Part shown: in pieces, positions 1 to 23,867 of the stretch | Position numbering within the stretch: the stretch's first letter is position 1 | How the letters are laid out: each line of letters starts with the position of its first letter | Source of the DNA: a virus | Reading direction: 5' to 3' (one strand) | Virus record (IMG/VR): IMGVR_UViG_3300025010_000053 | Location: 6,498 to 70,497 of that record | Length of the DNA stretch: 64,000 nt | The notes under the pieces: generated by a model | Seen by the model: the letters and a program-made list of their open reading frames with translations, nothing else | Told to the model about the DNA's origin: nothing | Database searches by the model: none | Translations under genes and position numbers: made by a program

Positions 1-2
1 TA

Positions 3-185: not shown

Positions 186-196
186 GCGGTGATTTC

Positions 197-844: not shown

Positions 845-845
845 G

Positions 846-1238: not shown

Positions 1239-1249
1239 GAGGGGGTTCT

Positions 1250-2192: not shown

Positions 2193-2196
2193 GAAT

Positions 2197-4728: not shown

Positions 4729-4732
4729 TGCT

Positions 4733-5479: not shown

Positions 5480-5524
5480 TCCGTAAGGGTCAATTAATAT
5501 AACTAAATAGGGGAGGGATTTAAA

Positions 5525-6205: not shown

Positions 6206-6364
6206 TCTATCTAGTTGCTTAATTATAAGGAGGGCGAAGGCTCTCCTTTACATAATCATTAATTGTTTTTACGCGTAATATTTGAGGTATACAAAAAGTA
6301 TACAAGTATACCTATGTATACCTCTTCGGAGGTTATTTTTATTTGGTTACCGGGAGATGGTTTT

Positions 6365-6778
6365 ATGGATTTCAACAGAATAAAAGTATGCGCGGGAGTG
6401 CTTGGGACTGCAGTTGGCAGCTCCCTGGGGGCAGTGTTGGGAGGGTGGGACGCGCTACTCAAAGCCTTAGTTATTTTTATCGTGTTGGATTATATTAGTG
6501 GTCTTATTGCCTCTGGCTTTGAAGGCAGGCTTAGCAGTAGGATAGGTTTTCGGGGGGTAGCTAAGAAGGTTTTTATCCTCATACTGGTAGCTGTAGCCTA
6601 TATTATTGATCAACTGATTGGAGCGAACATGATACGTGACGCTGTTGTTGGCTTTTATCTCGGTATAGAGGGACTATCTATACTTGAAAACGCAGGTAGG
6701 GTGGGCATTCCGTTACCTGCTATCTTAAAAAATATGCTAGAAATTTTGAAGTCCAAGAAACAGGAGCAAGGGAAATAA
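6365..6778 (+). CDS. Phage holin (toxin secretion/phage lysis holin family)
   Basis: LGGWDALLKALVIFIVLDYISG...EGLSILENAGRVGIPLP motif. Confidence 0.9.
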   Translation: MDFNRIKVCAGVLGTAVGSSLGAVLGGWDALLKALVIFIVLDYISGLIASGFEGRLSSRIGFRGVAKKVFILILVAVAYIIDQLIGANMIRDAVVGFYLGIEGLSILENAGRVGIPLPAILKNMLEILKSKKQEQGK

Positions 6779-6801
6779 GTTATTTGTTAGGAGTGATGAG
6801 T

Positions 6802-8037
6802 ATGAGAAAAAAACCCGTTCATTACCTGCAATACGACCCTAAGTGGGGTAAAATAATGTTCTCTAACCACAACGACACTAAACAAACAATCGCTTCGTCC
6901 GGTTGTGGTGCTGCGTCATCTGCAATGGTACTTGCTACTTTGCGCGATCCTGCTATTGCGCCGGAAGGTGTGGCTTATGACATAATGGATAGCGGCTATC
7001 GTACCTATAATAATGGCGTAGACTGGGCATGGTTTCCGGTCATGGCTAAAAAATATGGGCTTAGAATGAAGCAAACAACTTCAACTGATGAGACAATTGA
7101 GGAACTCAAGAACAACGCCTTGGTTGTTGCAAGTATGGGCCCGGGATATTTCACAAAGTTTGGCCACTATATTTTGTTGTGGAACGTTGATGAAGCTAAC
7201 AAGATTATTTACGTCAATGATCCGAACAGTACTACCAGAACCAAAGCAGCCTACGACATATTCAAGAAGCAGGCAAGGCAGTATTTCATATTTTACGGGG
7301 AGGCAAAAGGCATGGAGCCAAAACAATTCATCAGTCTACTAGTTCCTGATGCTCAAAAGTTGCAACTGGAATTTGGTATTTTTGCTTCTGTAACGTTAGC
7401 GCAAGCAGCACTGGAAACCGGTTGGGGAAAATTTATGCCAAAGGATAAAAATACCGGTCAGGTAAGCTATAATTTATTCGGCGTAAAAGGTAAGGGTACA
7501 GCCGGTAGCGTACTGTCCCGGACATGGGAGGTATATGACGGCAAGCGGGTTGAAATAGATGCACAATTCAGAGCTTATAATAATTATCTGGAAAGCCTAC
7601 GGGATCATCATGCGTTTCTTATGCAGGACCGTTACATCCCTGTTTGCCAGGCAGTAACACCTGGGGAAGCAGCTGAACAGTTATACAAATGTGGCTATGC
7701 AACTGACCCTGATTATCCAAAGAAGCTTATTGATATAATAAATACCCATAATCTGCAGCAGTATGATATTGTAGTTGCAGAGTGGGCGAGGGAATCATGG
7801 CGGAAGGCTATGGCAAAAGGCATTCTGGATGGCACAAACCCGCAGGGGGCAGTAACCCGGGAAATGCTGGCTGTAATGTTGAACCGCTGTGGATTGCTTG
7901 ACGCAGCTGAGATTCCGCAAAGCTTTGTAGATGCGCTGAAAGCTGCAGGGATAATCAGTAGTGACCACCCTGTTGGCGCAAGGCCGACATGGGGAGAGCT
8001 AGCTTCAGTGATTAGTAAGCTGGAAGTTAAGAAGTAA
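6802..8037 (+). CDS. Endolysin: C39-like cysteine peptidase + GH73 glucosaminidase + C-terminal cell-wall-binding region
   Basis: SGCGAASSAMV and GHYILL; AQAALETGWG, NLFGVKG, GYATDPDY; between two holins. Confidence 0.88.
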   Translation: MRKKPVHYLQYDPKWGKIMFSNHNDTKQTIASSGCGAASSAMVLATLRDPAIAPEGVAYDIMDSGYRTYNNGVDWAWFPVMAKKYGLRMKQTTSTDETIEELKNNALVVASMGPGYFTKFGHYILLWNVDEANKIIYVNDPNSTTRTKAAYDIFKKQARQYFIFYGEAKGMEPKQFISLLVPDAQKLQLEFGIFASVTLAQAALETGWGKFMPKDKNTGQVSYNLFGVKGKGTAGSVLSRTWEVYDGKRVEIDAQFRAYNNYLESLRDHHAFLMQDRYIPVCQAVTPGEAAEQLYKCGYATDPDYPKKLIDIINTHNLQQYDIVVAEWARESWRKAMAKGILDGTNPQGAVTREMLAVMLNRCGLLDAAEIPQSFVDALKAAGIISSDHPVGARPTWGELASVISKLEVKK

Positions 8038-8095
8038 TCTTTGGCCCTGGCTCACGCTGGGGCTTCTTAAATTTTAAAATGGAGGTGCAGTTAGC

Positions 8096-8569
8096 ATGGA
8101 TTTAAGTCAATTCACCCCGGACATGGACACGGCCATTAAGTCACTAATAAGTATACTACTCACAATGGGTGCTTATTATCTTAGGCAGCATTTCACCGAG
8201 AAACAAATGGCTACTGCCAAGGGCATTGCTAAGATAGCTGTGTCTGCAACTGAGCAGTATGCAGCAATAAAGGGAATTAGGGGCGAGGATAAACTGAGTG
8301 ATGCTATTTTGCGGGCTGTTGGGTTAGGAAAAGCGTCAAGGATTAAGTACACTGACGACAAGTGGGATAGCTTAATCCATGATGCGCTGGCTGAGGTTAA
8401 GAAAGTTTGGAACACTACAGACACTACCACCGCCACAGCGCAAACTACCGACATGGTTGTTACTGCTGAATTCGATCAGCTAAAATCAGGGGTAGAGGCG
8501 TCAATTGAACAGTTGCAGAAACAAATAGCTAACTTTTCTGCAGGGGTTATTTTGAAAAAATTAGGCTAA
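8096..8569 (+). CDS. Second holin (LL-H-like)
   Basis: N-terminal TM, IAVSATEQ...G.DKL..A motif, RBS ggaggtg. Confidence 0.7.
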   Translation: MDLSQFTPDMDTAIKSLISILLTMGAYYLRQHFTEKQMATAKGIAKIAVSATEQYAAIKGIRGEDKLSDAILRAVGLGKASRIKYTDDKWDSLIHDALAEVKKVWNTTDTTTATAQTTDMVVTAEFDQLKSGVEASIEQLQKQIANFSAGVILKKLG

Positions 8570-8596
8570 AATAACATAACGCGAATTAATTTTGTG

Positions 8597-8646
8597 CCTC
8601 GGAACTGTCAAAGAAATGTTGACGGTTGCCGGGGCTTTTTTATTTT
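8597..8646. terminator. Bidirectional intrinsic terminator at the end of the late operon
   Basis: Long stem gcctcggaactgtcaa / ttgacggttgccggggc followed by a T-tract. Confidence 0.75.
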
Positions 8647-8650
8647 CCGA

Positions 8651-9115
8651 TTAAGTTTTATATTTCCTGCCCTTAATAGGCAACCCCGTAACATGGTTCC
8701 ATGTGTAACCGTTAATTATTCTGGAAACTGCACTCAGGTGGACATGGAATCTTTTAGCCAACTCTAATTGTGTAACTCCACCTTTATTATATGTAGTAAA
8801 TATTTCTTCTACCTGCTCTTTGGTCAGTATGGCGTGCGGATGCCGGTCCCCGATGGCCGGATTTGGCCTATGTGCTATTTTAATTCTTGTTTCCTCAGAT
8901 TTCTCTATCCCCCTATGACCTGCGGCAATACGTTCCCGATGCTGTAGGGTGTATTTTCTGCCGAGGATGGGGGAAGGCTTTCCGATCTTACCTTTCCTGG
9001 CATTCCTTAGCTTCTCTTTTGTTTCTTCGGTGCACTTATAACTTCCGCGCTCCCTCCTTGTTGCAACCATTTTAGCTATCCGCTCAGATGTGTATTTCGT
9101 TGCCAATATCACCAA
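8651..9115 (-). CDS. NUMOD3-repeat + HTH DNA-binding protein (homing-endonuclease C-terminal part, no nuclease domain seen)
   Basis: EETKEKLR and KSEETRIKI NUMOD3 motifs; GDRHPHAILTKEQV...TQLELAKRFHVHLSAVSRIINGYTW HTH. Confidence 0.7.
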   Translation of the reverse strand: MVILATKYTSERIAKMVATRRERGSYKCTEETKEKLRNARKGKIGKPSPILGRKYTLQHRERIAAGHRGIEKSEETRIKIAHRPNPAIGDRHPHAILTKEQVEEIFTTYNKGGVTQLELAKRFHVHLSAVSRIINGYTWNHVTGLPIKGRKYKT

Positions 9116-9305: not shown

Positions 9306-9334
9306 TTGTGACCTTGATGCTAAAATGGTATGAT
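9306..9334 (+). promoter_or_regulatory. sigmaA-type promoter of small RNA copy 1
   Basis: TTGTGA-17 nt-TATGAT with TG extension. Confidence 0.7.
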
Positions 9335-9340
9335 ATAGCC

Positions 9341-9410
9341 AACAGATCCTCCCGCGCCTCTCGACGCATGTCGTGATCATGTGAAGCGTACCAGGGGAGG
9401 ACGGCCTTTT
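9341..9410 (+). ncRNA. Small structured RNA, copy 1 (candidate antitoxin-like RNA)
   Basis: aacagatcctcccgcgcctc...gcgtaccaggggaggac shared with 24706-24750; TCCTCCC/GGGAGGA stem; own promoter. Confidence 0.6.
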
Positions 9411-9503: not shown

Positions 9504-9684
9504 CTATATCCACCTCCTTTCAAAGAGTGACTTGGCTATCTTACCACTAATGGGATTGTCTTGTCAATAAATTACTTATCTTGTTCTGACCAAATAAAAA
9601 AGCTCATCAAGTAGAGTCTAGAAAATCATTATTTGTATCTTTTATGATTATGGTGTATACTATTATCATGAAAGGAGTGATTCT

Positions 9685-9873
9685 ATGCTTATGTGTTCCC
9701 CGCGCGGTGGGGCCAGGACGGGATCTGGGCGACCGCCAAAGCCATCAGAGGAAAAATACAGCTCCCATCACATTAAATTTCTTGACGATGATTGGGAAAA
9801 AGTTAAGCGAAAAGCTAAAGAAAAAGGAATATCGGCTAGTGAATACGTACGGCGAAAAGCTCTGGAGGATTGA
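9685..9873 (+). CDS. Ribbon-helix-helix-type regulator (copy A)
   Basis: RGGARTGSGRP leader, then IKF.DDDWEKVKRKAKEKGISASEYVR; RBS aaaggag. Confidence 0.75.
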   Translation: MLMCSPRGGARTGSGRPPKPSEEKYSSHHIKFLDDDWEKVKRKAKEKGISASEYVRRKALED

Positions 9874-9914: not shown

Positions 9915-9954
9915 TGATTATGGTGTTGACAGATTTCATAGATTAGTGTAAAAT
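9915..9954 (+). promoter_or_regulatory. Strong sigmaA promoter of the accessory operon, abutting a repeated operator
   Basis: TTGACA(9926)-17-TAAAAT(9949); TGATTATGGTGT at 9915-9926 also occurs at 9645-9656. Confidence 0.75.
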
Positions 9955-9990: not shown

Positions 9991-10170
9991 ATGCAAAACT
10001 TTATTCAGCAACAACTGCAGGAAATTGAATCAGAATTCAAGAGTGGAACATCATCAAAGTTGTTTTTGGAAGGTCGCGCGAAGCAGCTCGTATTGACCGC
10101 CAGACATATTGGTGACAAGAAACTAGAGATTAAGGTAGTCGACCTGTATGTAGAAATTATGTCTAGCTAG
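9991..10170 (+). CDS. 59-aa hypothetical protein (MQNFIQQQLQEIESEF...), first gene of the accessory operon
   Basis: RBS aaaggagg; below the ORF-track size cutoff; translated by hand. Confidence 0.65.
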   Translation: MQNFIQQQLQEIESEFKSGTSSKLFLEGRAKQLVLTARHIGDKKLEIKVVDLYVEIMSS

Positions 10171-10183
10171 TACAGAGGAGGTC

Positions 10184-10477
10184 ATGGCAATGACCAAAAA
10201 TGAATTAATTGCAGAGGTCAAAGAAATTAGAGCATTATTCAGAAACGTAACGGAAAAAGAAATATTTGCAATACAGGCAGTACTAAGAGAAAAGGAACTA
10301 GATGGAAGGCACGAATACTGGCACAAAGCAAATAAGCTAAACATCATCTGGAACCACAGGACAGAATCAGGGATGAGAAAGATGACCAAAAAACAGTTAA
10401 GCGAATACATAGAGGAATTAATCGCCGATCTAGGCGAAGCAAACGACTTGATGAGAGAAGGATTGTCGATGTTGTAG
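10184..10477 (+). CDS. Hypothetical protein
   Basis: RBS gaggaggt; 97 aa. Confidence 0.65.
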   Translation: MAMTKNELIAEVKEIRALFRNVTEKEIFAIQAVLREKELDGRHEYWHKANKLNIIWNHRTESGMRKMTKKQLSEYIEELIADLGEANDLMREGLSML

Positions 10478-10568
10478 GGGTTTAATTCCTTACTCAGGTC
10501 CTTGACCAAGATCGTTCTCCTGAAAAGGTGAGGTTTGGAAATAAAATTTAAAATGGAGGTTTGGAAAT

Positions 10569-10886
10569 ATGAAAGCATACAGAATTTATTACATGGACGG
10601 TTGCAGAAAAGTGTATCTTTGTGAGTCAGGTGGTTACTGGATGCACCATTGCGAAAGTCCAGAACAATGCTGCATTTACCTAACCCCGGAAAGCGCTCAA
10701 ATGACTGCGACAGCAAACGAAGGCTTCGTATCTCCATCGGAAGCCAAACGACACATTGAAGAATACGAGGAAACAAGGGGTATTGCAGTAAATAGGCATA
10801 ACGGCAATGCAAGGGATGCCGCGCTACTAAGGTATTTAAGTGACAGATACTCGTATGATATTATTCAAGAACCCGCTAAGGCATGA
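10569..10886 (+). CDS. Hypothetical protein
   Basis: RBS ggaggt; 105 aa. Confidence 0.65.
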   Translation: MKAYRIYYMDGCRKVYLCESGGYWMHHCESPEQCCIYLTPESAQMTATANEGFVSPSEAKRHIEEYEETRGIAVNRHNGNARDAALLRYLSDRYSYDIIQEPAKA

Positions 10887-10957
10887 CCGAGAAGGCCGGT
10901 CGCCGGGAGAAATCCCGGTCCAGTTCAAGGGTTAAAAAAAAGAAAGGGGATATAAAA

Positions 10958-11596
10958 ATGAAAATGACAGCAACTGAATTAATCAAAAAATACAACATCA
11001 CGCTACACATTGAAGGTCAAATCAGGGTTCCGAACGCAAAGAAGCTTTCTCAGAAAACACGCGACATGCTCGTAGCAGCAAAGCCGGAAATCATTGCAGA
11101 ATTGCAACGTCGGGAACAGGAGAAGGCTGAACTAAAAGCCAGGGAACTGGCGGAGAAAGAAGCAGAGAAACAGGCTATCCTTGCTGGAGAAAAAGCCATC
11201 CACCTGAAATATCATGACGGCGAGCATCTGAGTGGTCACTTTGCTACTGGGCAGGCAGCAGAGGTTCTAATGGGTTTAGGGATTGCAAATTATGTTAGCG
11301 GTTGGGGTTGTCATGTAGACCTTAAAGCCGTTGAAGCACTGGGCGAAGAGTTCACCTACCCGCAGGCCGCTTTATATGCAAGTCCGATGATTGAGGCAAA
11401 AACAGAGGCTATTCGGAAGAAATACGCTGAACGTCAAGAGAAATTTGACCAAGCTAGAGAAACTGGTAAGCCCGTATTGTTGAGTAGTTGGAGTGCCCCA
11501 TGCTGTGACCCACGGGAAGAATGCTCCTGGGATAACCATTATGAGCACGCAATGCCAGACGGTAGAGTAAAGAAATCCTGGAACCACACCTGGTAG
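10958..11596 (+). CDS. Hypothetical protein
   Basis: ATG at 10958 after aaagggga; MKMTATELIKKY... Confidence 0.65.
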   Translation: MKMTATELIKKYNITLHIEGQIRVPNAKKLSQKTRDMLVAAKPEIIAELQRREQEKAELKARELAEKEAEKQAILAGEKAIHLKYHDGEHLSGHFATGQAAEVLMGLGIANYVSGWGCHVDLKAVEALGEEFTYPQAALYASPMIEAKTEAIRKKYAERQEKFDQARETGKPVLLSSWSAPCCDPREECSWDNHYEHAMPDGRVKKSWNHTW

Positions 11597-11607
11597 AACG
11601 CAAAAAA

Positions 11608-11635
11608 GTTAGGTCGGGCGGGTTGCCTGGCCTAA
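11608..11635. repeat. 28-nt intergenic hairpin, identical copy at 23308-23335
   Basis: gttaggtcgggcgggttgcctggcctaa; 11-bp stem with G-U pairs. Confidence 0.85.
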
Positions 11636-11664
11636 TCTAAAATAAATATATAGGAGGAATAGAA

Positions 11665-12150
11665 ATGTTAACAGCGCAAATCAGTCAAGATTGGCAGAAA
11701 AAAATGGTCATAGATGCCATTTTAAAAGAATACCCAAAAGCTACAGGATTCCAGTTTTCCTGTGGATTTAATCGTACAGAATGGAATGACAGTCCAAACC
11801 TGTCGCCCTACTTCCATTGTGATTTCATCGAGGAAACCAGCGCATACCAGGCATATGTCCACAAGGACGGTATTGATTTCAACTATCAGGGAGAATTATG
11901 CCAAGAATATCAGGTATCCGGACAGTTTTACTTTCTTACGAAGGAACTTACCTTTCAAGAAATGCTTGTTAATGTAGTCAAAGTCCACGCTGTCGCAGGG
12001 TACAACGATGGAGGCCACATCCGCCTGATCCATTGGAATATCACGTGTCAGGAGGACTGGAAGCGTTTGAAAAAGCAGTGCCCGAACAGTGAGAAACGCT
12101 TGATTTTCTACTACCCGGACGGCAAAACAGCAGCAGAGTCGGTCTTTTAG
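11665..12150 (+). CDS. Hypothetical protein
   Basis: RBS aggagg; 161 aa. Confidence 0.65.
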   Translation: MLTAQISQDWQKKMVIDAILKEYPKATGFQFSCGFNRTEWNDSPNLSPYFHCDFIEETSAYQAYVHKDGIDFNYQGELCQEYQVSGQFYFLTKELTFQEMLVNVVKVHAVAGYNDGGHIRLIHWNITCQEDWKRLKKQCPNSEKRLIFYYPDGKTAAESVF

Positions 12151-12214
12151 TTTTCCCAGGCTTGGGGTTAGCCGAAAAAGCCCTGCCAGGAAAAAATAAA
12201 AAGGAGGAATAGTT

Positions 12215-12946
12215 ATGAAATTAAGCGTAAACGACGCTGACGGAACTGCTGTTGTCGCAGTACTGAAGTTGAACGGACAACCTGCTGTAGAGAAAATCGA
12301 CTACATCAATTGGGAAGGACAATACCACAAGAACGGAAAGTGGAGCTATACCGAAGGTGGCGTTTCCCTGTGTGATGGCATTGTCTTAATTAAGCATATG
12401 TCTACTCACAGCAGTGCCAACAATCTGCGCTATGCCCACATTGTCGCGGATAATGTGGAGGAGGACAGCATATTTGTCATGGGCGTAGTCTCGGAGCAAG
12501 ACGAATACCCAAAAATGCCTGCCGGTTTTACTCTTGGATACCATGTCTGGGATGCTATCGTGGAAGGGTTTTTGAACATCCCGAATCCCACAGACAGATT
12601 TAAACAGAGCGTTGCCGATGCCCGAGCACGCTGGGAACTTGCAGAGCAATTCAATCCCACCAGGCCGATTACAGTAGAAGGTCCCGTATTTTGGAGTATT
12701 GGCGTAGATGGCCCCTGTACACCATCAGATCCGTTGCCAGTCATGCCGGAAATTCCCCGCGGATCCCTGTTGGTCATCGGTGGACGGGCACCTATTTGGA
12801 GGTATGGCTTAGCCCTACATCAAGCGCACGGATCCGCTGCCGGTGCTGCAGCCACCTTTGATCCAAAGATTGGGGCGGTGGTAGTAGCAACACACAACGC
12901 CAATTGGAAGGAGAGGCAGATTGTCGCTGTGGACTGGCCGTTTTAG
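12215..12946 (+). CDS. csx3: Csx3/Crn3 (CRISPR ring nuclease)-like domain fused to an unknown N-terminal domain
   Basis: C-terminal LLVIGGRAPIWRYGLALHQAH...ATFDPKIGAVVVATH matches the Csx3 signature GRxPxW...H..H...DP(R/K)xGAVVVxxH. Confidence 0.8.
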   Translation: MKLSVNDADGTAVVAVLKLNGQPAVEKIDYINWEGQYHKNGKWSYTEGGVSLCDGIVLIKHMSTHSSANNLRYAHIVADNVEEDSIFVMGVVSEQDEYPKMPAGFTLGYHVWDAIVEGFLNIPNPTDRFKQSVADARARWELAEQFNPTRPITVEGPVFWSIGVDGPCTPSDPLPVMPEIPRGSLLVIGGRAPIWRYGLALHQAHGSAAGAAATFDPKIGAVVVATHNANWKERQIVAVDWPF

Positions 12947-12977
12947 TCCGCAAGATTAAGCTAAGGAGGTGATACAT

Positions 12978-13163
12978 ATGATTAATCTAGATATTAAACC
13001 CACAGAAGAACAATTGGCAAAAGTTCCCGAAACCAAAAAAGCGCTGAATGCTCTTTATGTGGCAATTGAAGCTGAGTTTCCAGTTGGTAGAGAAAAGTCA
13101 CTTATTTTTACCAACCTGGATGTGGCAATATTATGGATTCGTGAGGCCATTATGAAACTTTAG
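12978..13163 (+). CDS. Acb2/Tad1-like helical-hairpin protein (putative nucleotide-signal sponge)
   Basis: FPVGREKSLIFTNLDVAILWIREAI resembles the P.xREKSLA.TxLE.A.MW motif of the Acb2/Tad1 hairpin family; RBS aaggaggtg. Confidence 0.6.
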   Translation: MINLDIKPTEEQLAKVPETKKALNALYVAIEAEFPVGREKSLIFTNLDVAILWIREAIMKL

Positions 13164-13229
13164 TCTACTATCTCTGCCCGTTTAGATACGGGCGGGGGTG
13201 GTGGGATTGAAAATAGGGGAGGGGTAATT

Positions 13230-14087
13230 ATGAATTTTGATGAATTATGTGTCAGGGTATTCGCTGGTTTTGAAGCCGGAGAAGTCCACTACTACATCAA
13301 CGAATGCTTCAGAGAAAGAGGATTTGGGAGAGATAGTGTTGAACAGATCCTCAAAAATTACGGTTTTGAGTTCAACTTGGATGATACAGATGTATATGAA
13401 AAAATTTGTGAAGTTTCAAAAGGATTGTTCGTTGAGTTGGCACCCTTTGAAGAGCTTCGCAAAAAGGTGTATGAAGGATATCGAACAGGTAAAGTACACC
13501 ACTATTTTACTAATTCTTTCGGTCATTATTACTCCAAAAAAACCGTCATAAGCCACTTAAACCGCTATGGCATTCCTGTCGATTTGGACGCTCAGGATGC
13601 TTACGAGCAGATTTTAAAACTGTCCATACCGTTGTTTTTGGAGTCAAAAGGGCTCCACTTAGGCAAGAATACTTTCAAGCTTGATGACGGAAAGTATCTC
13701 GTTAACGACGGCGGCAAGTACAGGCCCAATCTGTCTCTAATTTTCACTGAGGACAGGTTGTTAAAAGCATTTGATTATGCAGCCGATACCGAACTTCAAG
13801 GCAGTCTTAATGTCTCTTTTTCTGGCAACATGGGGTTTAAGTTTGGTCGTTTCTTTAAGAGCAAGAAAGGCACTAACTGCTTTGAGGAAATGGATCGCGA
13901 TAAAGCCCCGCATATGCTCATCAAAATAAATTGGGGCGGTGCTTTTGATAGTTCGCGTGGGTTTAGAAGTTGGCCCGAAGGAAGTCTATACCGTCGCGTT
14001 GCCAAATCAAATGGCGGCGGAGCTGGCAATGACTACCTTGTACTGCCGATTAATTTTAAGCAGACCTTAAGGTTTGGGGATATTTAA
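13230..14087 (+). CDS. Hypothetical protein
   Basis: 285 aa; RBS ggagggg. Confidence 0.7.
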   Translation: MNFDELCVRVFAGFEAGEVHYYINECFRERGFGRDSVEQILKNYGFEFNLDDTDVYEKICEVSKGLFVELAPFEELRKKVYEGYRTGKVHHYFTNSFGHYYSKKTVISHLNRYGIPVDLDAQDAYEQILKLSIPLFLESKGLHLGKNTFKLDDGKYLVNDGGKYRPNLSLIFTEDRLLKAFDYAADTELQGSLNVSFSGNMGFKFGRFFKSKKGTNCFEEMDRDKAPHMLIKINWGGAFDSSRGFRSWPEGSLYRRVAKSNGGGAGNDYLVLPINFKQTLRFGDI

Positions 14088-14114
14088 TCTTAGAGTTCGT
14101 TGGAGGTGTCAAGC

Positions 14115-15251
14115 ATGGCCCAATACAACGTTACCCGTGCTTGCGGGCATGAGGAAACAGTTAACCTTATTGGTAAGCACAAACTACGGGAGTGGCGACT
14201 GGAGAACGTCGAACCAAACAAGTTATGCCACACCTGTTACCATGCGGAACTTGAACGCCAGCGTGAAAAGGCCACCGCCGAAGCTATCGAGGCAGCGAAA
14301 GAAATGGAGTTGCCAGCACTCGATGGAACTGAAAAACAAGTGGCCTGGGCAGAGCGAATACGCCAGGAGATATTGCTCCGGGCAGAAGGATTCCTGCATG
14401 GAAATATCACCGATGAGCAACGCGCTGATCTAATGACCGGACTTGACCACCTACAACAGATCGAGTCAGCGAGTTGGTGGATTGACCGCCGTGATATGTC
14501 ATTGCGGATGCTTGAAACTCTACTGCTCAACACTGCCAAACAGCAGAAGGATAAGCCGCCACAGGTGCTTACCGACGCTGTTAAAATAGAGGCGACTGTC
14601 AGGCCTGAAAACACCGTCACCGAAACTGTAGCGGAAATCCGAGCACTTGAAAAAAGCATGGAAATATATTTTCCCGAGAAGCGCGACGACTTTCGGGAAA
14701 TTGTAAAGGAAAAATTGAGTATGGATTGGACCGGGCTGTGCTGGAGAAGAAAAATAGCGAAGCACAACGGCACTCCGGCAGATCGTGCATCTGAGGCAGG
14801 GCACAGACTGCTTGCTGCTGGGTTCCCTGTTAGAATCTTTGACGATGAGACACGGCAGAAGGCCATCGACGGCACATATGAGCCAGAGCATACCCGCTGG
14901 ATTATGTGCCGCACTACAGGCGGTTATGCTGGTCACCTAGTGGTACGGTGGAGCAAGAAAGAAGACTTCTACCGTGCTGCAAAGGGTATTAACGGTAGTC
15001 GATATGACAAACCCGATGTTGTGGTTCCCCCCGAGCATTTTGCCGAGGTACTGGACTTCGCACAAATGTATGACTTTAGGATCTCGTCAGGTGCGCAGAA
15101 GGCAATAGATTTAGCACGGCAGGCATGGGAGAGCATACTTACCGTAATTGTCGCGCCGCCAGCGGAAAAAGATTGCGTGGTTGCCATCGGCAAGCCTCCC
15201 GTCTTGGAGGTTCCTATTGATATGAATATTGCAGATGAATTTAGGGATTAG
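14115..15251 (+). CDS. Conserved hypothetical protein with N-terminal Cys/His motif (CGH...CxxC)
   Basis: RACGHEETV...LCHTC...LPALDGTEKQVAWAERIR; RBS ggaggtg. Confidence 0.75.
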   Translation: MAQYNVTRACGHEETVNLIGKHKLREWRLENVEPNKLCHTCYHAELERQREKATAEAIEAAKEMELPALDGTEKQVAWAERIRQEILLRAEGFLHGNITDEQRADLMTGLDHLQQIESASWWIDRRDMSLRMLETLLLNTAKQQKDKPPQVLTDAVKIEATVRPENTVTETVAEIRALEKSMEIYFPEKRDDFREIVKEKLSMDWTGLCWRRKIAKHNGTPADRASEAGHRLLAAGFPVRIFDDETRQKAIDGTYEPEHTRWIMCRTTGGYAGHLVVRWSKKEDFYRAAKGINGSRYDKPDVVVPPEHFAEVLDFAQMYDFRISSGAQKAIDLARQAWESILTVIVAPPAEKDCVVAIGKPPVLEVPIDMNIADEFRD

Positions 15252-15263
15252 GAGGGGTAAGTC

Positions 15264-15464
15264 ATGCTCATAAAAGAAGACGGCGGACTTTATGACGCGC
15301 ACGAAGAGTGCAATTTAGCTAAAACCTGCGATAAATACAAAACCGTCGGTAAATTTAGCGGTTGTCAGAACATCGGAAGAATAGGAGTCACCTGCTTTTG
15401 CTTAATTAGACCAGATCACCCTCGTATCAAACTTGATCTGGTCTATGTTAAGTGTGAATCTTAG
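15264..15464 (+). CDS. Small Cys-rich hypothetical protein
   Basis: RBS ggagggg; 66 aa with 6 Cys. Confidence 0.5.
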   Translation: MLIKEDGGLYDAHEECNLAKTCDKYKTVGKFSGCQNIGRIGVTCFCLIRPDHPRIKLDLVYVKCES

Positions 15465-16869
15465 AACCGAACTGTTGCCGCACCAAGTACCTGCTGTTGA
15501 GAAAGTGCTGCCGTCTCGTATTGGCGGTCTATTCTGCGACATGGGTACTGGCAAAACGCGCATGTCAATTGAACTGGTTGACCGACGCAAAACCAAAATT
15601 GACAAGGTAATCTGGTTTTGCCCGGTTAGCCTAAAGGAAACGGTCAGACAGGAGATACTCAAGCATACTGACTGTATAGACAGTGACATTTGCGTATTTG
15701 GAGACAGGACAAATGAGAGCAACGTCCCAAGCGTGCCTTGGTATGTTGTAGGGATTGAGTCAATGAGTAGCAGTACCCGCGTGGTCTTGACTGTAAATAA
15801 GCTTATTACCGAGAGTACGATGGTTATCTTGGACGAATCGTCATACATCAAGGGTCACCGCTCAATGCGGACGTTGCGGATTACGGAATTATGCAAACGC
15901 GCACGGTACCGACTCATCTTAACCGGTACTCCGCTGTCTCAGGGAGTAGTTGATCTATTTGCGCAAATGCGTTTTTTATCTCCCAAGATTTTGGGTTACG
16001 AGTCGTTTTACTCTTTCGCGGCGAATCACCTGGAGTATTCGGAAAAGTATCCGGGCATGATTGTTCGTGCTCACAATGTTGAGTACCTGGCCGCGAAAAT
16101 AAAACCTTACATTTACCAGGTTACTAAGGAGGAATGCCTTGATCTTCCGTCGAAACTTTACGAAACTAGGTATTTCAGTATGAGTTACGAACAGCGGCAG
16201 CATTATGAGTGGGCAAAGGAGGAAATCCTTGCCGATCTCCTGGAGGACGATGACGATTCTATTCCGATCTTTAGACTGTTCACTGCTCTGCAGGGTATCG
16301 TCTGCGGGTTTTGGAATCGGAGGATTAGTCGGGGTCATTATCAGAAAATGAGGTTTGAGCATGACCGGGTGAGCACCTTACTCGAAACGATCTATAGCGT
16401 ACCGCGTGACACAAGATTTATTATTTGGGCAAAATATACATATGACATCCAACAGATCGCCGATATGCTGCAGGCCAATTTTGCCGACCAGGGGTTTAGT
16501 TTGTATCATGGTGGGTTATCAGAAAAGCAACGTAACGCCGAAGAAGCTAGATTTCATGCCGGAAATAGATTCTTTGTTGGTACCGCCAAGACCGGCGGGC
16601 ATGGACTAACCTTAAATGAGGCACATTATACTATTTTCTATAATAACTCGTTTAAATACAGCGAACGACTGCAGTCGGAAGATCGGAATCACCGGATTGG
16701 CCAGACCAATAAGGTAACCTATATTGATATTCGCTGTTCGAACAGTATTGACGAAAGAATCGCTGAAAACTTAGCCCAAAAGGGCAATACTGTAAATAGT
16801 TTCCGGAGGGAGGTTGAAAAGGTCAAATATAAAAAAGACCGTCTAAAGGAGTTGATTATGTCGCTGTGA
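15433..16869 (+). CDS. SNF2-family helicase/ATPase
   Basis: DMGTGKT, LDES, LTGTP, QSEDRNHRIGQ. Confidence 0.9.
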   Translation: MIWSMLSVNLRTELLPHQVPAVEKVLPSRIGGLFCDMGTGKTRMSIELVDRRKTKIDKVIWFCPVSLKETVRQEILKHTDCIDSDICVFGDRTNESNVPSVPWYVVGIESMSSSTRVVLTVNKLITESTMVILDESSYIKGHRSMRTLRITELCKRARYRLILTGTPLSQGVVDLFAQMRFLSPKILGYESFYSFAANHLEYSEKYPGMIVRAHNVEYLAAKIKPYIYQVTKEECLDLPSKLYETRYFSMSYEQRQHYEWAKEEILADLLEDDDDSIPIFRLFTALQGIVCGFWNRRISRGHYQKMRFEHDRVSTLLETIYSVPRDTRFIIWAKYTYDIQQIADMLQANFADQGFSLYHGGLSEKQRNAEEARFHAGNRFFVGTAKTGGHGLTLNEAHYTIFYNNSFKYSERLQSEDRNHRIGQTNKVTYIDIRCSNSIDERIAENLAQKGNTVNSFRREVEKVKYKKDRLKELIMSL

Positions 16870-18161
16870 GTAAGAAAAAGTATCTCAAAAAGAACGTGTA
16901 TGAAGCAGCACTGGAACGCGTCAAAACTATTTTCGAAGAGTTCGAAAAGGTGTATGTTTCCTTTTCCGGCGGCAAGGACAGCGGGGTTGTTTTGAACCTT
17001 GTCCTTGATTATATGCGTAAAAACGGGATAACGAATAAAATCGGGGTTCTTGTTGTTGATCTGGAAGGTCAGTATCAAGAAACCATAAATTACATACATA
17101 CCATGCTTACGGACAATGCTGACTTGATAGAACCATACTGGGCATGCTTGCCGCTAAATCTGCGCAATGCTGTGTCAGTCTATCAGCCGTTCTGGTGTTG
17201 CTGGGAGCCAGGACTAGAAGATAGATGGATTAGGCAATTTCCTGACTATCCGGTTATAAAAGATCAGGAATTCTTTCCGTTCTATCAGTACAGAATGGAA
17301 TTTGAAGAATTCGTTCCGAAGTTCGGCAAGTGGTTTTCTGGTGGAGAAAAGACTGCTTGCCTGGTAGGCATACGTTCCGATGAAAGCCTTAACCGATTCA
17401 GAACAATTGTAAGCGACAGTAAAGAGACTTATAGCGGCATAAACTGGACAACGAAGATAGACGAGAATCTTTACAATTGCTATCCAATTTACGATTGGCG
17501 AACTGAAGATATTTGGACCGCCAATGGTAAAAACGGGTGGGAATATAACAAACTCTATGATCTGTTTTACAAGGCCGGTGTCGGCATCCACGATATGCGG
17601 ATTTGCCAGCCCTATGGTGATGACCAACGGATCGGGCTGAATCTGTTCCGGGTTATCGAACCCGAGACATGGGCCAGGGTAGTTAATCGTGTATCCGGGG
17701 CAAACTTTGGTAATATTTATTGTGGTACTAAGGCATTAGGGTATCGTCAGGTACAGCTACCGGCCGGGCATACGTGGAAAAGCTACACAAAGCTTTTACT
17801 TGCATCACTTCCACCCGAAACCAGGGAGAACTATGTTAGCCGGTTTATCCGTTTTATGAGATATTGGAATAGAAACGGGTGTGGGTTGCCAAGTGAATGC
17901 TTTAGCAAACTGCCCCCTTCCGCTGTTGTAACGGATAAGATAGCTACCAGAGGGAATAAGGATAAACGTGTCGTTAGGTACAGGAAAATAGAAGATAGCC
18001 TTGACGGCGATATTGAAAGCAAACACTATGCTCCTACTTGGCGTAGGATGGCCATGTGCATCCTTAAAAATGACCACCTGTGCAAAGGATTGTCGTTTGC
18101 CCAAATCAAGAACCAGGCAGAGCGGCAACGACAGCTGATAGAAAAGTACCGAAATTTGTAG
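16866..18161 (+). CDS. ibrA: IbrA-like PAPS-reductase/PP-loop protein (DUF3440)
   Basis: SFSGGKDS, GIRSDESLNR, YPIYDW..EDIW, MRICQPYGDDQR, PTWRRMAMCILKNDHLC. Confidence 0.85.
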   Translation: MSKKKYLKKNVYEAALERVKTIFEEFEKVYVSFSGGKDSGVVLNLVLDYMRKNGITNKIGVLVVDLEGQYQETINYIHTMLTDNADLIEPYWACLPLNLRNAVSVYQPFWCCWEPGLEDRWIRQFPDYPVIKDQEFFPFYQYRMEFEEFVPKFGKWFSGGEKTACLVGIRSDESLNRFRTIVSDSKETYSGINWTTKIDENLYNCYPIYDWRTEDIWTANGKNGWEYNKLYDLFYKAGVGIHDMRICQPYGDDQRIGLNLFRVIEPETWARVVNRVSGANFGNIYCGTKALGYRQVQLPAGHTWKSYTKLLLASLPPETRENYVSRFIRFMRYWNRNGCGLPSECFSKLPPSAVVTDKIATRGNKDKRVVRYRKIEDSLDGDIESKHYAPTWRRMAMCILKNDHLCKGLSFAQIKNQAERQRQLIEKYRNL

Positions 18162-18173
18162 GGGGTACCGTCC

Positions 18174-18587
18174 ATGAAGATAATTAGACTAACAAACCAG
18201 GACAAAAGCTTTTACTCCACACTGGGGCCGTTTCTGGCCCGTCGTGACGTTGAGCGCGAAATTGGCTACAAGATATACGACGATGACGGAAAAGTGTGGA
18301 TTACTGCTCTTGAATTAAAAAAGGTCGTGGGGTTTTGTTATCTTTGGGAGAAAACAAAAGCACATTATCAGATCGGTAGTTGCTATGTCGTTGAAAAGTA
18401 CCGGCAACAAGGTGTTTTTCGCCAGCTATTTAACAGTGCAATTAAGGATATTAAAGGCGTTGTTACTATGACAACGAAGAATAAATATTTAATGGAAATG
18501 ATAGCTGATGAAGGTTTTATGGAGAGTAAGAAGAGAGGTAGCTTTACTGAGTATGCAAAGGAGTATGGTTCAAATGAAAGCGTTTAA
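18174..18587 (+). CDS. GNAT-family acetyltransferase-like protein
   Basis: YVVEKYRQQGVFRQL acetyl-CoA binding motif A. Confidence 0.7.
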   Translation: MKIIRLTNQDKSFYSTLGPFLARRDVEREIGYKIYDDDGKVWITALELKKVVGFCYLWEKTKAHYQIGSCYVVEKYRQQGVFRQLFNSAIKDIKGVVTMTTKNKYLMEMIADEGFMESKKRGSFTEYAKEYGSNESV

Positions 18588-19083
18588 GAGCCCAGTTTAC
18601 AATGTTATTGCCGTGCCAATTAAAAATATTAGGGCAAATGCTTGGAATCCTAATGCCGTAGCTCCACCCGAAATGAAACTTCTTTATGACTCAATTAAAG
18701 AAGATGGCTATACAATGCCAATAGTTTGTTACTTTAATCCGTCTGATGATACATATGAGATTGTTGACGGGTTTCACCGCTACAGCGTTATGTTGAAACA
18801 TAAGGATATTTATGATCGCGAGAATGGCTGTTTGCCTGTATCTGTGATCGATAAACCAATCAGTGATAGGATGGCTTCAACAATACGCCACAACCGCGCT
18901 AGGGGTACGCATAACATTGACTTGATGAGCAATATCGTGGCCGAGCTTGTTGAAATGGGCAAATCTGATTCCTGGATTGCTAAGCATTTGGGAATGGACG
19001 TTGATGAGTTGCTGCGACTTAAACAAATTACCGGTCTAGTTGCGCTTTTCAGGAGCCGGGAATACTCAAAATCATGGATATAG
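18574..19083 (+). CDS. ibrB: IbrB-like ParB/Srx-domain protein
   Basis: NAWNPNAVAPPEMKLL, IVDGFHRY, MASTIRHNRARG, HLGMDVDELLRLKQITG. Confidence 0.88.
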   Translation: MKAFKSPVYNVIAVPIKNIRANAWNPNAVAPPEMKLLYDSIKEDGYTMPIVCYFNPSDDTYEIVDGFHRYSVMLKHKDIYDRENGCLPVSVIDKPISDRMASTIRHNRARGTHNIDLMSNIVAELVEMGKSDSWIAKHLGMDVDELLRLKQITGLVALFRSREYSKSWI

Positions 19084-23690: not shown

Positions 23691-23867
23691 ATGCCCAAGG
23701 GCGGAAAGCGCGAGGGAGCCGGGAGACCGGAAATAGCAGACAAATTGATTACCAAGACCTACAGACTTCTTCAGTCGGACATAGAAAAACTGGAGAAGTT
23801 AGCGAAAAAACAGGAAATAACCGCTTCTGAGGTGATGCGGAATTTAATAAGAAGGGAGGGAAATTGA
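23691..23867 (+). CDS. Ribbon-helix-helix-type regulator (copy B)
   Basis: MPKGGKREGAGRP...EKLEKLAKKQEITASEVMRNLI, paralogous to 9685-9873. Confidence 0.7.
   Translation: MPKGGKREGAGRPEIADKLITKTYRLLQSDIEKLEKLAKKQEITASEVMRNLIRREGN

What the first reader, a model, noticed from the sequence alone, without database searches (positions are those of the whole stretch)
9991..15251. Putative anti-defence island aimed at nucleotide-signalling immunity
Seen: one strong promoter drives about nine co-oriented genes, each with a strong RBS and many separated by GC hairpins (10477, 10885, 11608, 12150, 13170). Two adjacent genes resemble counter-defence families against cyclic-nucleotide immunity. Inference: the unknown neighbours (9991, 10184, 10569, 10958, 11665, 13230, 14115) are strong candidates for undescribed anti-defence proteins.
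Basis: inference. Interest (0 to 1): 0.75.

Follow-up and report, generated by a model that had tools for sequence, protein, structure and literature searches.

The report
Phage ring-nuclease and sponge operon
A temperate phage from groundwater carries, behind one repressor-marked promoter, a gene pair predicted to cut up and soak up the small alarm molecules of bacterial CRISPR type III and CBASS immunity; the cutting enzyme is fused to an undescribed domain that also sits beside three unrelated ring-nuclease families in other phages.

Summary
A near-consensus promoter (9926-9954) heads nine co-oriented genes with Shine-Dalgarno sites, and four of the five named hairpins are real.

Both anchor genes are real:
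- ORF6 (12215-12946) ends in a Crn3/Csx3 ring-nuclease domain. It has a confident fold match, and four of the five functionally important residues of the archaeal enzyme are kept; the fifth changes from R71 to K.
- ORF7 (12978-13163) is a divergent 61-aa Acb2/Tad1 hairpin protein. It keeps the Arg-x6-Thr cyclic-trinucleotide pocket and the hexamer tryptophan.

The "island" reading is only partly right:
- ORF9 (14115-15251) is the first gene of a conserved ORF9-SNF2-PAPS reductase-ParB module, found in nine other viral contigs. The accessory block therefore ends at 14087.
- ORF1-3 are swapped in a sister phage.
- ORF1-5 have no functional evidence.

New here:
- The N-terminal domain of ORF6 belongs to an unnamed phage family of about 140 aa. 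Elsewhere it lies next to AcrIII-1/DUF1874 or Csx20 ring nucleases.
- The C-terminal domain of ORF8 recurs 3 kb from a stand-alone Csx3.

Both are concrete candidates for new anti-type III CRISPR components. No biochemistry or expression data exist.

The parts
9645..9656 (+). 12-bp motif TGATTATGGTGT, copy 1, at the promoter of the RHH gene
   Evidence: Exactly two copies in 64 kb, both here; 0.34 expected even when one mismatch is allowed.
9685..9873 (+). Small ribbon-helix-helix protein (62 aa), candidate Aca-like repressor of the operon
   Evidence: Pfam NikA-like 30 bits (cut-off 27), with weaker RHH_7 and Arc-like matches. 76% identical in sister phage L004. A paralogue lies at 23694-23840.
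9915..9926 (+). 12-bp motif, copy 2, abutting the -35 box of the operon promoter
9926..9954 (+). Sigma-70-type promoter TTGACA-17-TAAAAT
   Evidence: 11 of 12 positions; one of three such sites in the window.
9991..10170 (+). ORF1, 59 aa, helical orphan
   Evidence: No family hit. Only 51% identical in sister phage L004.
10190..10477 (+). ORF2, 95 aa (97 aa from 10184), orphan
   Evidence: No family hit. No counterpart in L004. The RBS spacing favours the ATG at 10190.
10569..10886 (+). ORF3, 105 aa, orphan
   Evidence: No family hit. No counterpart in L004.
10885..10919 (+). Two adjacent GC hairpins at the mosaic joint with the sister phage
   Evidence: z -3.7. The stretch that is 96% identical to L004 starts at 10870.
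10958..11596 (+). ORF4, 212 aa (237 aa from 10883), coiled coil plus Cys-rich C-terminus, unknown function
   Evidence: Weak match to phrog_33472. Homologues lie near the SNF2 module in L019 (41% identity, after ParB) and L017 (fragment).
11608..11636 (+). 12-bp-stem hairpin
   Evidence: z -4.1.
11665..12150 (+). ORF5, 161 aa, orphan
   Evidence: No family, Atlas or IMG/VR relative.
12151..12194 (+). Hairpin
   Evidence: z -2.0.
12215..12664 (+). ORF6 N-terminal domain (aa 1-150): beta-sandwich plus two helices; an unnamed phage family associated with ring nucleases
   Evidence: 28 clusters found by phmmer. AF2 pLDDT 95.8. Neighbours elsewhere are AcrIII-1/DUF1874 and Csx20.
12677..12946 (+). 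ORF6 C-terminal Crn3/Csx3 ring-nuclease domain (aa ~155-243)
   Evidence: Pfam 52.3 bits and PADLOC 2e-18. AF2 pLDDT above 90 and Foldseek TM 0.63-0.70 to AfCsx3. H202, H205, D216 and H227 are kept, and K218 replaces R71.
12978..13163 (+). ORF7, 61 aa, minimal Acb2/Tad1-hairpin sponge candidate
   Evidence: R38, T45 and W53 correspond to the cyclic-trinucleotide and hexamer residues of Acb2 and Tad1.
13164..13205 (+). 18-bp-stem hairpin
   Evidence: z -6.2.
13230..14087 (+). ORF8, 285 aa: two N-terminal repeats plus a conserved C-terminal domain (aa ~140-285) with a Gly-rich SNGGGAGNDYLV motif
   Evidence: Three distant homologues. One of them (P0041) lies 3 kb from a stand-alone Csx3 on contig L054.
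14115..15251 (+). ORF9, 378 aa: first gene of the conserved downstream module, not part of the variable cassette
   Evidence: phrog_16123 at 1e-25. Syntenic with SNF2, PAPS-reductase/DUF3440 and ParB in L017-L024 and L026 at 29-59% identity.
15445..19083 (+). SNF2 helicase, PAPS-reductase/DUF3440, GNAT and ParB-like genes: context, same transcription direction

Best explanation
The stretch between the LL-H-type holin and a conserved ORF9-SNF2-PAPS reductase-GNAT-ParB module is a variable accessory slot of a temperate tailed phage. It starts with a small RHH gene, followed by a near-consensus promoter; the same 12-bp motif marks both promoters.

The functional core of the slot is ORF6 plus ORF7. 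The C-terminal Crn3/Csx3 domain of ORF6 most likely cleaves cyclic tetra-adenylate (cA4), the main type III CRISPR second messenger. By analogy with AfCsx3, it would use Mn2+ and dimers stacked head to tail. ORF7 most likely forms an Acb2/Tad1-like hexamer that sequesters cyclic trinucleotides (cA3/cAAG), which are used by CBASS and by type III CRISPR with NucC. Together they would degrade one signal and soak up another.

The N-terminal domain of ORF6 is a separate module that phages repeatedly pair with ring nucleases. I infer that it adds a function in the same fight that cA4 cleavage does not cover. Binding another signal or a host effector is my best guess. A stoichiometric binder is favoured because the domain also occurs as tandem genes and as tandem repeats within one protein.

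ORF8 may belong to the same toolkit. ORF1-5 are exchangeable cargo of unknown function. ORF9 belongs to the next module.

Shown: family and fold assignments, conserved residues, synteny, mosaicism and co-occurrence. Inferred: all activities, the ligands, the timing of expression and repression by the RHH protein.
For: Csx3 domain:
- Pfam 52.3 bits (cut-off 21); PADLOC Csx3 2e-18.
- phmmer to AfCsx3 structures 2e-5.
- AF2 pLDDT above 90 for aa 160-243.
- Foldseek finds only Csx3 chains at E<1e-3, with TM 0.63-0.70 over about 92 residues.
- AfCsx3 H57, H60, D69 and H80 align to H202, H205, D216 and H227.

ORF7:
- Its tblastn neighbours in five phages are all true PF24729 members at 59-96 bits. 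They share GREKSL..T.L..A..W..AI with ORF7.
- A profile that includes ORF7 hits Acb2_43 (9PTQ) at 1e-10 and Tad1 at 6e-4.
- 93 of the 100 nearest Atlas clusters carry PF24729, and the structural TM is 0.82.
- Arg and Thr seven residues apart bind the phosphates of cA3 in PaMx33 Acb2 (R67/T74) and in Tad1 (R88/T95, R90/T97). The Trp eight residues after the Thr is part of the Tad1 hexamer interface.

N-terminal domain of ORF6:
- It is fused to Csx3 here.
- It lies 78 nt downstream of an AcrIII-1/DUF1874 gene in L042/L043.
- It lies about 0.6-0.7 kb downstream of DUF1874 in L056/L057 and L062.
- It lies 6 nt upstream of a Csx20 gene in L061 (PADLOC 8.8e-28).
- Ring nucleases are rare in phages: AcrIII-1 was found in 36, Csx20 in 4 and Crn3 in 0 of 28,114 genomes (PMC12409355).
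- The domain also occurs as tandem genes (L060) and as 3-4 tandem repeats in one protein.

Variable slot and control.

ORF8: its homologue lies near a stand-alone Csx3.
Against: - No activity, ligand, oligomer state or expression has been measured.
- R71 of AfCsx3, described as absolutely conserved and important for activity, is Lys here (K218). Lys also occurs in the closest MGE homologue, P0003, while most relatives keep Arg.
- ORF6 scores below the NCBIfam equivalog cut-off (45.4 against 55.4).
- ORF7 is below Pfam's gathering score (24.2 against 27). It lacks the N-terminal F..H motif and the Y11/K26-type pocket that carry dinucleotide or 3'cADPR binding in studied homologues.
- The ring-nuclease association of the N-terminal domain rests on four lineages out of about nine. 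Four other loci showed no ring nuclease nearby.
- The ORF8 link rests on one contig lineage.
- The block follows the late lysis genes in the same orientation, so early expression is not established.
- The host is unknown, so it is also unknown whether it has type III CRISPR or CBASS.
Confidence: 0.6

Rival explanations
1. Lysogeny-phase tolerance cassette. The block lies between the lysis genes and the integrase end of a temperate genome, the classic moron position. It would be expressed from the prophage at a low, RHH-limited level so that host type III CRISPR or CBASS signalling triggered by prophage transcripts does not kill the lysogen. The biochemistry would be the same, but the purpose and timing would differ.
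For: - The temperate layout includes a large serine recombinase at 31224-32708(-), an HTH repressor at 34836-35408(-) and a tyrosine recombinase at 19225.
- The block has its own sigma-70-type promoter and an adjacent small repressor-like gene with a shared motif.
Against: Nothing distinguishes lysogenic from early lytic expression. Acr operons under Aca control are also expressed early in lytic growth (established knowledge of Aca regulators).
Confidence: 0.15
2. Only ORF6 and ORF7 are counter-defence genes. The other ORFs, the N-terminal domain of ORF6 and ORF8 are unrelated cargo (host take-over, superinfection exclusion or selfish genes). They would sit nearby only because this slot tolerates insertions, so their co-occurrence with ring nucleases elsewhere reflects shared hot spots rather than shared function.
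For: - ORF1-5 and ORF8 match no family.
- Four loci carrying the N-terminal domain lack a nearby ring nuclease.
- ORF4 homologues appear at different positions near the SNF2 module.
Against: - A translational fusion of the N-terminal domain to Csx3 is hard to explain by hot-spot sharing.
- Three unrelated ring-nuclease families sit as immediate neighbours in separate lineages, against a phage background of about 0.1%.
Confidence: 0.15
3. The Csx3 domain of ORF6 is a non-catalytic cA4 binder (a sponge or decoy), or it acts on RNA, rather than being a ring nuclease.
For: - The R71K change falls at a residue whose Ala variant is strongly impaired.
- AfCsx3 was first described as an RNA deadenylase (PMC7371418).
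- Related proteins with degenerate sites exist: P0006 has H60Y, and P0010 lacks both His residues.
Against: Both metal-site histidines, the catalytic Asp and the pinning His are kept, and Lys is a conservative replacement that can still contact phosphate.
Confidence: 0.07
4. The whole block is a prophage-borne defence or DNA-modification system. The Csx3 domain would be its off-switch, and the SNF2/PAPS-reductase genes its effector.
For: The SNF2 gene resembles ZorD, DpdE and DrmD helicases in PADLOC, and PAPS-reductase genes occur in Dnd- and BREX-type systems.
Against: - No cyclase, Cas10, CD-NTase, TIR or CARF/SAVED effector was seen among the genes scanned.
- The sponge-family gene next door is a phage counter-defence family.
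- The SNF2 module occurs without ORF1-8 in nine other viral contigs.
Confidence: 0.03

Closest known systems
Crn3/Csx3 of Archaeoglobus fulgidus (PDB 6YUD, 6VJG, 3WZI)
   Same: The fold is the same (Foldseek TM 0.63-0.70). The His-x2-His, Asp and distal His residues are the same. The expected substrate is cA4.
   Different: - It is encoded by a phage, not in a type III CRISPR locus.
- It carries a 150-aa N-terminal domain.
- Lys replaces the conserved R71.
- Sequence identity is about 26%.
- A survey of 28,114 phage genomes reported no Crn3.
AcrIII-1 (DUF1874) viral ring nuclease, and the phage-borne Csx20 and Csx16
   Same: The proposed role is the same: a virus-encoded enzyme that destroys cA4 to defeat type III CRISPR. 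Homologues of the ORF6 N-terminal domain lie next to AcrIII-1 and Csx20 genes in other contigs.
   Different: The fold and the active site are unrelated to Csx3. Those enzymes are stand-alone proteins, not fusions.
Acb2 (PaMx33, T4 Vs.4), Acb2_43 (PDB 9PTQ) and Tad1
   Same: The helical hairpin has the same GREKS..T..E.A..W-type motif, the same Arg-x6-Thr trinucleotide pocket and the same interface Trp. The gene sits in a phage accessory region.
   Different: - At 61 aa it is shorter than Acb2_43 (76 aa), PaMx33 Acb2 (its numbered residues reach P90) and the solved Tad1 chains (123-138 aa).
- It lacks the N-terminal strand or helix residues that bind cGAMP or 3'cADPR.
- It has Asp-Val where Tad1 has Gln/Glu-Glu at the interface.
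- It scores below Pfam's cut-off.
Aca-controlled anti-CRISPR operons
   Same: A strong promoter is paired with a small DNA-binding protein, and a sequence motif is repeated at its own promoter and at the cargo promoter.
   Different: - The regulator is an RHH protein encoded upstream under its own promoter, not at the 3' end of the operon.
- Binding is untested.
- The same promoter may also serve a conserved five-gene module.
Csx1-Crn2 'fuse to defuse' fusions
   Same: A ring-nuclease domain is fused to a second domain that acts in the same pathway.
   Different: There the partner is a host effector and the fusion limits immunity. Here the partner is an unknown phage domain, and the fusion presumably defeats immunity.

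Membership tests
Crn3/Csx3 ring nuclease | Sequence-profile match above the curated threshold | tested here: met
   Pfam PF09620 at 52.3 bits against a cut-off of 21; PADLOC Csx3 at 2e-18. The stricter NCBIfam equivalog TIGR02579 is not reached (45.4 against 55.4).
Crn3/Csx3 ring nuclease | Csx3 fold | tested here: met
   AF2 pLDDT above 90 for aa 160-243. Foldseek against the PDB gives 13 AfCsx3 chains at probability 1.00 and TM 0.53-0.70 by target, twelve of them at E<=1e-3, and nothing else significant.
Crn3/Csx3 ring nuclease | Conserved H57, H60, D69, R71 and H80 (AfCsx3 numbering) | tested here: inconclusive
   H202, H205, D216 and H227 are present. R71 is replaced by K218, a change shared with MGE homologue P0003.
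Crn3/Csx3 ring nuclease | Mn2+-dependent cleavage of cA4 by head-to-tail dimers | not testable with these tools
   Needs purified protein.
Crn3/Csx3 ring nuclease | Location in or near a type III CRISPR-Cas locus | tested here: not met
   The gene is encoded in a tailed-phage contig between the lysis genes and a helicase module, and no cas genes were seen. This bears on the 'CRISPR-associated' label, not on the enzyme class.
Acb2/Tad1 hairpin family (PF24729) | Profile match above Pfam's gathering score | tested here: not met
   24.2 bits against 27, E 4e-5.
Acb2/Tad1 hairpin family (PF24729) | Nearest relatives are family members and share the core motif | tested here: met
   Five tblastn neighbours score 59-96 bits for PF24729. 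The invariant residues R38, E39, K40, T45, L47, A50, W53, A57 and I58 are shared. 93 of the 100 nearest Atlas clusters carry PF24729, and the structural TM is 0.82 to a 68-aa cluster.
Acb2/Tad1 hairpin family (PF24729) | Arg and Thr seven residues apart forming the cyclic-trinucleotide pocket | tested here: met
   R38 and T45 align with the RE..T motif of Tad1 and Acb2_43. The roles of R67/T74 (Acb2) and R88/T95 (Tad1) come.
Acb2/Tad1 hairpin family (PF24729) | Second pocket for dinucleotides or 3'cADPR (Y11/K26 of PaMx33 Acb2; T4-V7 strand of Acb2_43) | tested here: not met
   The N-terminal F..H.P motif of the aligned homologues is absent from ORF7.
Acb2/Tad1 hairpin family (PF24729) | Hexamer that sequesters the ligand without cleaving it | not tested
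   No oligomer prediction or assay was made for ORF7.
Anti-defence island / accessory hot spot | Two or more known counter-defence families adjacent | tested here: met
   ORF6 and ORF7 are 31 nt apart.
Anti-defence island / accessory hot spot | Gene content varies between close relatives at a fixed genomic position | tested here: met
   In the sister phage L004, ORF2 and ORF3 are replaced and ORF1 is 51% identical, while ORF4-9 are about 100% identical. The slot between the holin and the ORF9 homologue is about 0.47 kb in L018 against 5.5 kb here.
Anti-defence island / accessory hot spot | Early expression | not testable with these tools
   No host and no transcript data are available.
Aca-type repressor control | Small DNA-binding protein with operator copies at its own promoter and at the cargo promoter | tested here: inconclusive
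   The RHH protein matches NikA-like at 30 bits. A 12-bp motif occurs exactly twice, at both promoters. Binding is untested.

The most novel reading that the evidence does not exclude
The roughly 140-aa domain at the N-terminus of ORF6 would be a new class of type III CRISPR inhibitor that phages deploy together with whichever cA4 ring nuclease they carry (Csx3, AcrIII-1 or Csx20). It would cover what cA4 cleavage cannot. Possibilities include sequestering another messenger (cA3, cA5, cA6 or SAM-AMP), blocking a CARF/SAVED effector or Cas10, or protecting the phage from host systems that sense signal depletion. The C-terminal domain of ORF8 would be a second such factor.
Probability: 0.35. Interest if true: 0.82.

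Novelty: new variant of a known kind. Interest (0 to 1): 0.68.

Why it matters
Viral ring nucleases and nucleotide sponges are the two known ways in which phages silence signalling immunity. This locus would add Crn3/Csx3 to the viral ring nucleases; a 2025 survey of 28,114 phage genomes found none.

It also shows a degrade-plus-sequester gene pair. More usefully, it gives a sequence-defined, confidently folding domain family whose only consistent neighbours are ring nucleases of three unrelated folds. That makes a concrete, cheaply testable candidate for a new anti-type III CRISPR activity, and a bait for finding further counter-defence genes in uncultured phages.

The correction to the island's border (ORF9 belongs to a conserved SNF2/PAPS-reductase/ParB module) keeps screening effort off the wrong gene.

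Tried and rejected
- **DNA searches against INPHARED phages.** blastn and megablast of the island and of 20 kb of the window found no match.
- **Word-based protein searches.**
  - For ORF7 the search found only itself.
  - For ORF6 and ORF8 it found few relatives.
- **IMG/VR pattern scans.**
  - With ORF6, ORF8, ORF5 and ORF4 the scans gave nothing usable.
  - The first alignment of the N-terminal domain was too diverse to scan.
  - The trimmed alignment found only three weak viral loci.
- **ESM Atlas.** There was no usable hit for ORF8 (model pLDDT 0.54) or ORF5 (0.60).
- **Fold searches with the N-terminal domain model (pLDDT 95.8).**
  - Foldseek against the PDB, AFDB clusters and BFVD gave no match at E<=1e-3.
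  - The best VIA-align wide hit was Z 5.4 (Hat1), followed by Ig-like domains at Z about 4.5.
  - The best Atlas TM was 0.43 or less.
  - This shows neither that the fold is new nor that any family is excluded.
- **Full-length ORF6 model.** With a 10-row alignment the N-terminal half came out poorly (pLDDT below 50).
- **Complex prediction on two copies of the N-terminal domain.** It returned no verdict (score 0.00). This is not evidence either way.
- **The look-up of sequencing runs.** No RNA holder is listed; there are only groundwater DNA runs. This says nothing about expression.
- **Rfam.**
  - At gathering thresholds only a tRNA was found.
  - At the E-value threshold one abiF-like hit appeared at 24713-24749, just under the cut-off, and none at 9306-9410.
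- **Paralogues inside the window.** None was found for ORF1-9; only the RHH protein has one.
- **N-terminus of P0003.** It is not a detectable copy of the N-terminal domain.
- **Hairpin claimed at 10477.** Rejected.
- **Hairpins as intrinsic terminators.** Rejected, because none has a U tract.

Full report
**Setting.** The window is 64 kb of a 70.5-kb IMG/VR virus record, estimated 81% complete.
- Bases 1-8569 hold tail and lysis genes, ending with an endolysin (6784-8037) and an LL-H-type holin (8096-8569).
- Further on lie a tyrosine recombinase (19225), a large serine recombinase (31224-32708, - strand) next to a tRNA-Pro, an HTH repressor (34836-35408, - strand) and replication genes.
- The layout is that of a temperate tailed phage.
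- The same phage, or close variants, appears on about 22 metagenome contigs. Those with a named source, and the sequencing runs that hold the stretch, are groundwater metagenomes.
- Nothing similar exists among 50,697 deposited phage genomes.

**The observation.**
- The promoter TTGACA-17-TAAAAT at 9926-9954 is real (11 of 12 positions). It is one of three such sites in the window, and each stands at the head of a gene block, although that number is not above shuffles.
- Nine + strand ORFs follow, each with a GGAGG-type site 6-9 nt before the start.
- Gene calls on sister contigs agree with starts at 10190, 12978 and 14115.
- Four of the five named hairpins are stable compared with shuffles: 10885-10919, 11608-11636, 12151-12194 and 13164-13205, with z from -2.0 to -6.2. 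The one at 10477 is not.
- None has a U tract, so they are not classical terminators. Their role is open; RNA processing, RNA stability and cassette boundaries are all possible.

**ORF6, C-terminal half.**
- Residues ~155-243 match Pfam Cas_csx3 (52.3 bits, cut-off 21) and PADLOC Csx3 (2e-18). They match the solved A. fulgidus Csx3 sequences at 2e-5.
- AlphaFold models this part at pLDDT above 90.
- Foldseek against the PDB returns AfCsx3 chains only, with TM 0.63-0.70 over about 92 residues.
- The eLife study of AfCsx3 names H57 and H60 (likely Mn2+ ligands), D69, R71 and H80 as conserved and functionally important. With the 6-residue offset of the PDB chains, these align to H202, H205, D216, K218 and H227. 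Four of five are kept, and Arg71 is a Lys.
- The same Lys occurs in the closest relative of this domain, P0003, while most other relatives keep Arg. P0003 sits on a contig that also carries a type IV CRISPR (Csf3, Cas6), in other words another mobile element.
- A 2025 survey found AcrIII-1 in 36, Csx20 in 4, Csx16 in 2 and no Crn3 among 28,114 phage genomes (PMC12409355). Later papers in the library list viral ring nucleases without a viral Csx3.

**ORF7.**
- The 61-aa product scores 24.2 bits for Pfam Acb2_Tad1_hairpin, under the cut-off of 27, and has no close relative.
- Three lines of evidence lift the call:
  1. Its weak tblastn hits in 282 phage records are, in all five cases fetched, true family members at 59-96 bits. 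They share an invariant core with ORF7: R38, E39, K40, T45, L47, A50, W53, A57 and I58.
  2. A profile of these sequences finds the crystal structure of Acb2 homologue 43 (1e-10), Tad1 (6e-4) and T4 Vs.4 (0.04). That result owes much to the true members in the profile.
  3. In the ESM Atlas, 93 of the 100 nearest clusters carry the family, and the stored model superposes at TM 0.82 on a 68-aa viral cluster.
- Published structures show that an Arg and a Thr seven residues later, from neighbouring protomers, hold the phosphates of cA3/cAAG in both Acb2 (R67/T74) and Tad1 (R88/T95, R90/T97). The Trp eight residues after the Thr is part of the Tad1 hexamer interface. ORF7 has R38, T45 and W53 in exactly this register.
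- ORF7 lacks the N-terminal F..H.P motif of its aligned relatives. In Acb2_43 that motif forms the 3'cADPR pocket. ORF7 also has no evident counterpart of the Y11/K26 dinucleotide pocket.
- My reading is a minimal hexameric sponge whose safest predicted ligand class is cyclic trinucleotides.

**ORF6, N-terminal half.**
- Residues 1-150 match no Pfam, PHROG, NCBIfam or PADLOC model.
- An exhaustive phmmer search found 28 clusters. Most are stand-alone proteins of 136-147 aa. A few proteins carry 3-4 tandem copies, and some giant proteins have many partial matches.
- With 23 sequences AlphaFold gives pLDDT 95.8: a seven-stranded beta-sandwich (aa 1-90) followed by two helices.
- Conserved polar residues cluster in W33-G-x-Y-H-K-N-G-K-W-S and S63-T-H.
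- Genomic context is the informative part:
  - The homologue P0016 lies 78 nt downstream of a 150-aa gene on several contigs, two of them fetched as L042 and L043. That gene matches Pfam STIV_B116-like and the solved AcrIII-1 family members AFV3-109, STIV B116 and SIRV1 gp29.
  - A second lineage (L056/L057, with L062 related) has a 104-aa DUF1874 gene 0.6-0.7 kb upstream, and a truncated second copy downstream.
  - In L061 the gene 6 nt downstream is a Csx20 (PADLOC 8.8e-28). Csx20 is a third ring-nuclease family with confirmed activity.
- Counting this window, four of about nine lineages with usable flanks place the domain beside, or fuse it to, a ring nuclease. Three unrelated ring-nuclease folds are involved.
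- L045, L058, L060 and L063 show none.
- Because ring nucleases occur in roughly one phage genome in a thousand, I take this as a real functional link.
- A partner that works with three different folds is unlikely to be a dedicated subunit of any of them. A complementary activity in the same conflict is more likely.
- Tandem genes (L060) and tandem repeats hint at a dose-dependent binder. This step is inference.

**ORF8.**
- Its N-terminal half contains two similar ~65-aa repeats (read).
- Its C-terminal ~145 residues are conserved in three distant proteins and include a Gly-rich SNGGGAGNDYLV motif.
- One of those proteins, P0041, lies 3 kb downstream of a stand-alone 101-aa Csx3 (27 bits, cut-off 21). 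The contig shares no other gene with this phage.
- That is one independent co-occurrence, so it is suggestive only.

**ORF9 and the right border.**
- Homologues of ORF9 (29-59% identity) are followed in all nine viral contigs examined by homologues of the SNF2 helicase, the PAPS-reductase/DUF3440 protein and the ParB-like protein that follow it here.
- ORF9 is therefore the first gene of that conserved module, and the variable cassette ends at 14087.
- In L018 an LL-H holin and one 60-aa ORF are all that precede the ORF9 homologue. The 5.5 kb between holin and ORF9 in this phage is thus an expanded slot.
- ORF4 homologues occur near the module in two of these contigs, at other positions.

**Mosaicism and control.**
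- A sister phage (L004 and others) is 96% identical in DNA from 10870 to at least 21000, and ORF4-ORF9 are 99.5-100% identical.
- To the left of 10870, ORF2 and ORF3 are replaced by other small genes, ORF1 is 51% identical, the RHH protein is 76% identical, and the - strand HTH gene is missing. The joint coincides with the hairpins at 10885-10919.
- The motif TGATTATGGTGT occurs exactly twice in the window: beside the promoter of the RHH gene and abutting the -35 box of the operon promoter. This fits repression by the RHH protein, as with Aca regulators, but it is untested.
- A paralogous RHH gene (23694-23840) precedes a second strong promoter (24671) and an abiF-like RNA.

**Verdict.**
- The pair ORF6/ORF7 is a credible degrade-and-sequester unit against cyclic oligonucleotide immunity, sitting in a truly variable accessory slot.
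It fails for ORF9 and remains open for ORF1-5.
- The most valuable product is the ring-nuclease-associated domain family.
- All functions are predictions. Expression timing, host and ligands are unknown.

Noticed in passing
window 14115-19083; loci L017-L024, L026: A module of ORF9 (zinc-ribbon-like N-terminus, phrog_16123), SNF2 helicase, PAPS-reductase/DUF3440, sometimes GNAT, and a ParB-like protein is conserved across nine diverse viral contigs. It often lies just after the lysis genes. Its function is unknown; a DNA-modification or anti-restriction role is plausible.
   Followed up: partly
window 23694-23840, 24671-24749: A second RHH gene (39% identical to the first) lies upstream of an 11/12 promoter at 24671. 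An abiF RNA match follows at 24713-24749 (36.8 bits, gathering score 37). No abiF hit was seen at 9306-9410 at E<=0.1.
   Followed up: partly
window 31108-31183 and 31224-32708: A tRNA-Pro(CGG) gene lies 40 nt from the end of the large serine recombinase gene. This may be the attachment region or a phage tRNA.
   Followed up: no
L051 1-7630: The closest relative of the ORF6 Csx3 domain (P0003, 209 aa, different N-terminus, same Lys for R71) lies about 2 kb from type IV CRISPR genes (Csf3, Cas6, helicase) and a NERD protein. This is a mobile element carrying both a CRISPR system and a ring-nuclease-like gene.
   Followed up: no
L060 2148-4682: Two tandem genes of the ORF6 N-terminal domain family (70% identical) lie about 0.7 kb downstream of a 299-aa pentapeptide-repeat protein, with a 132-aa ORF in between. 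Pentapeptide-repeat proteins are known as DNA mimics.
   Followed up: no
L056 1030-3816; L043 1769-3010: Other counter-defence-type genes sit near the pairs of AcrIII-1 and the N-terminal domain: an orphan N6/N4 DNA methylase and a truncated second DUF1874 copy in L056, and an Acb2/Tad1 hairpin gene (31.4 bits) beside a WDGH-domain gene in L043.
   Followed up: partly
proteins P0010, P0006: Some Csx3-domain proteins have degenerate active sites. P0010 lacks both histidines and carries a Fic domain. P0006 has Tyr for H60.
   Followed up: no
proteins P0021, P0029, P0037: Giant proteins (1957-4354 aa, one of them with BspA-type leucine-rich repeats) contain 9-24 partial matches to the first ~60 residues of the ORF6 N-terminal domain. 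The beta-sandwich may be related to a repeat found in surface proteins.
   Followed up: no
window 6784-9115 versus L004: The sister phages differ in their endolysin: C39 peptidase plus glucosaminidase here, Amidase_3 plus PG_binding_1 in L004. They also differ in the presence of the - strand HTH gene 8651-9115.
   Followed up: no
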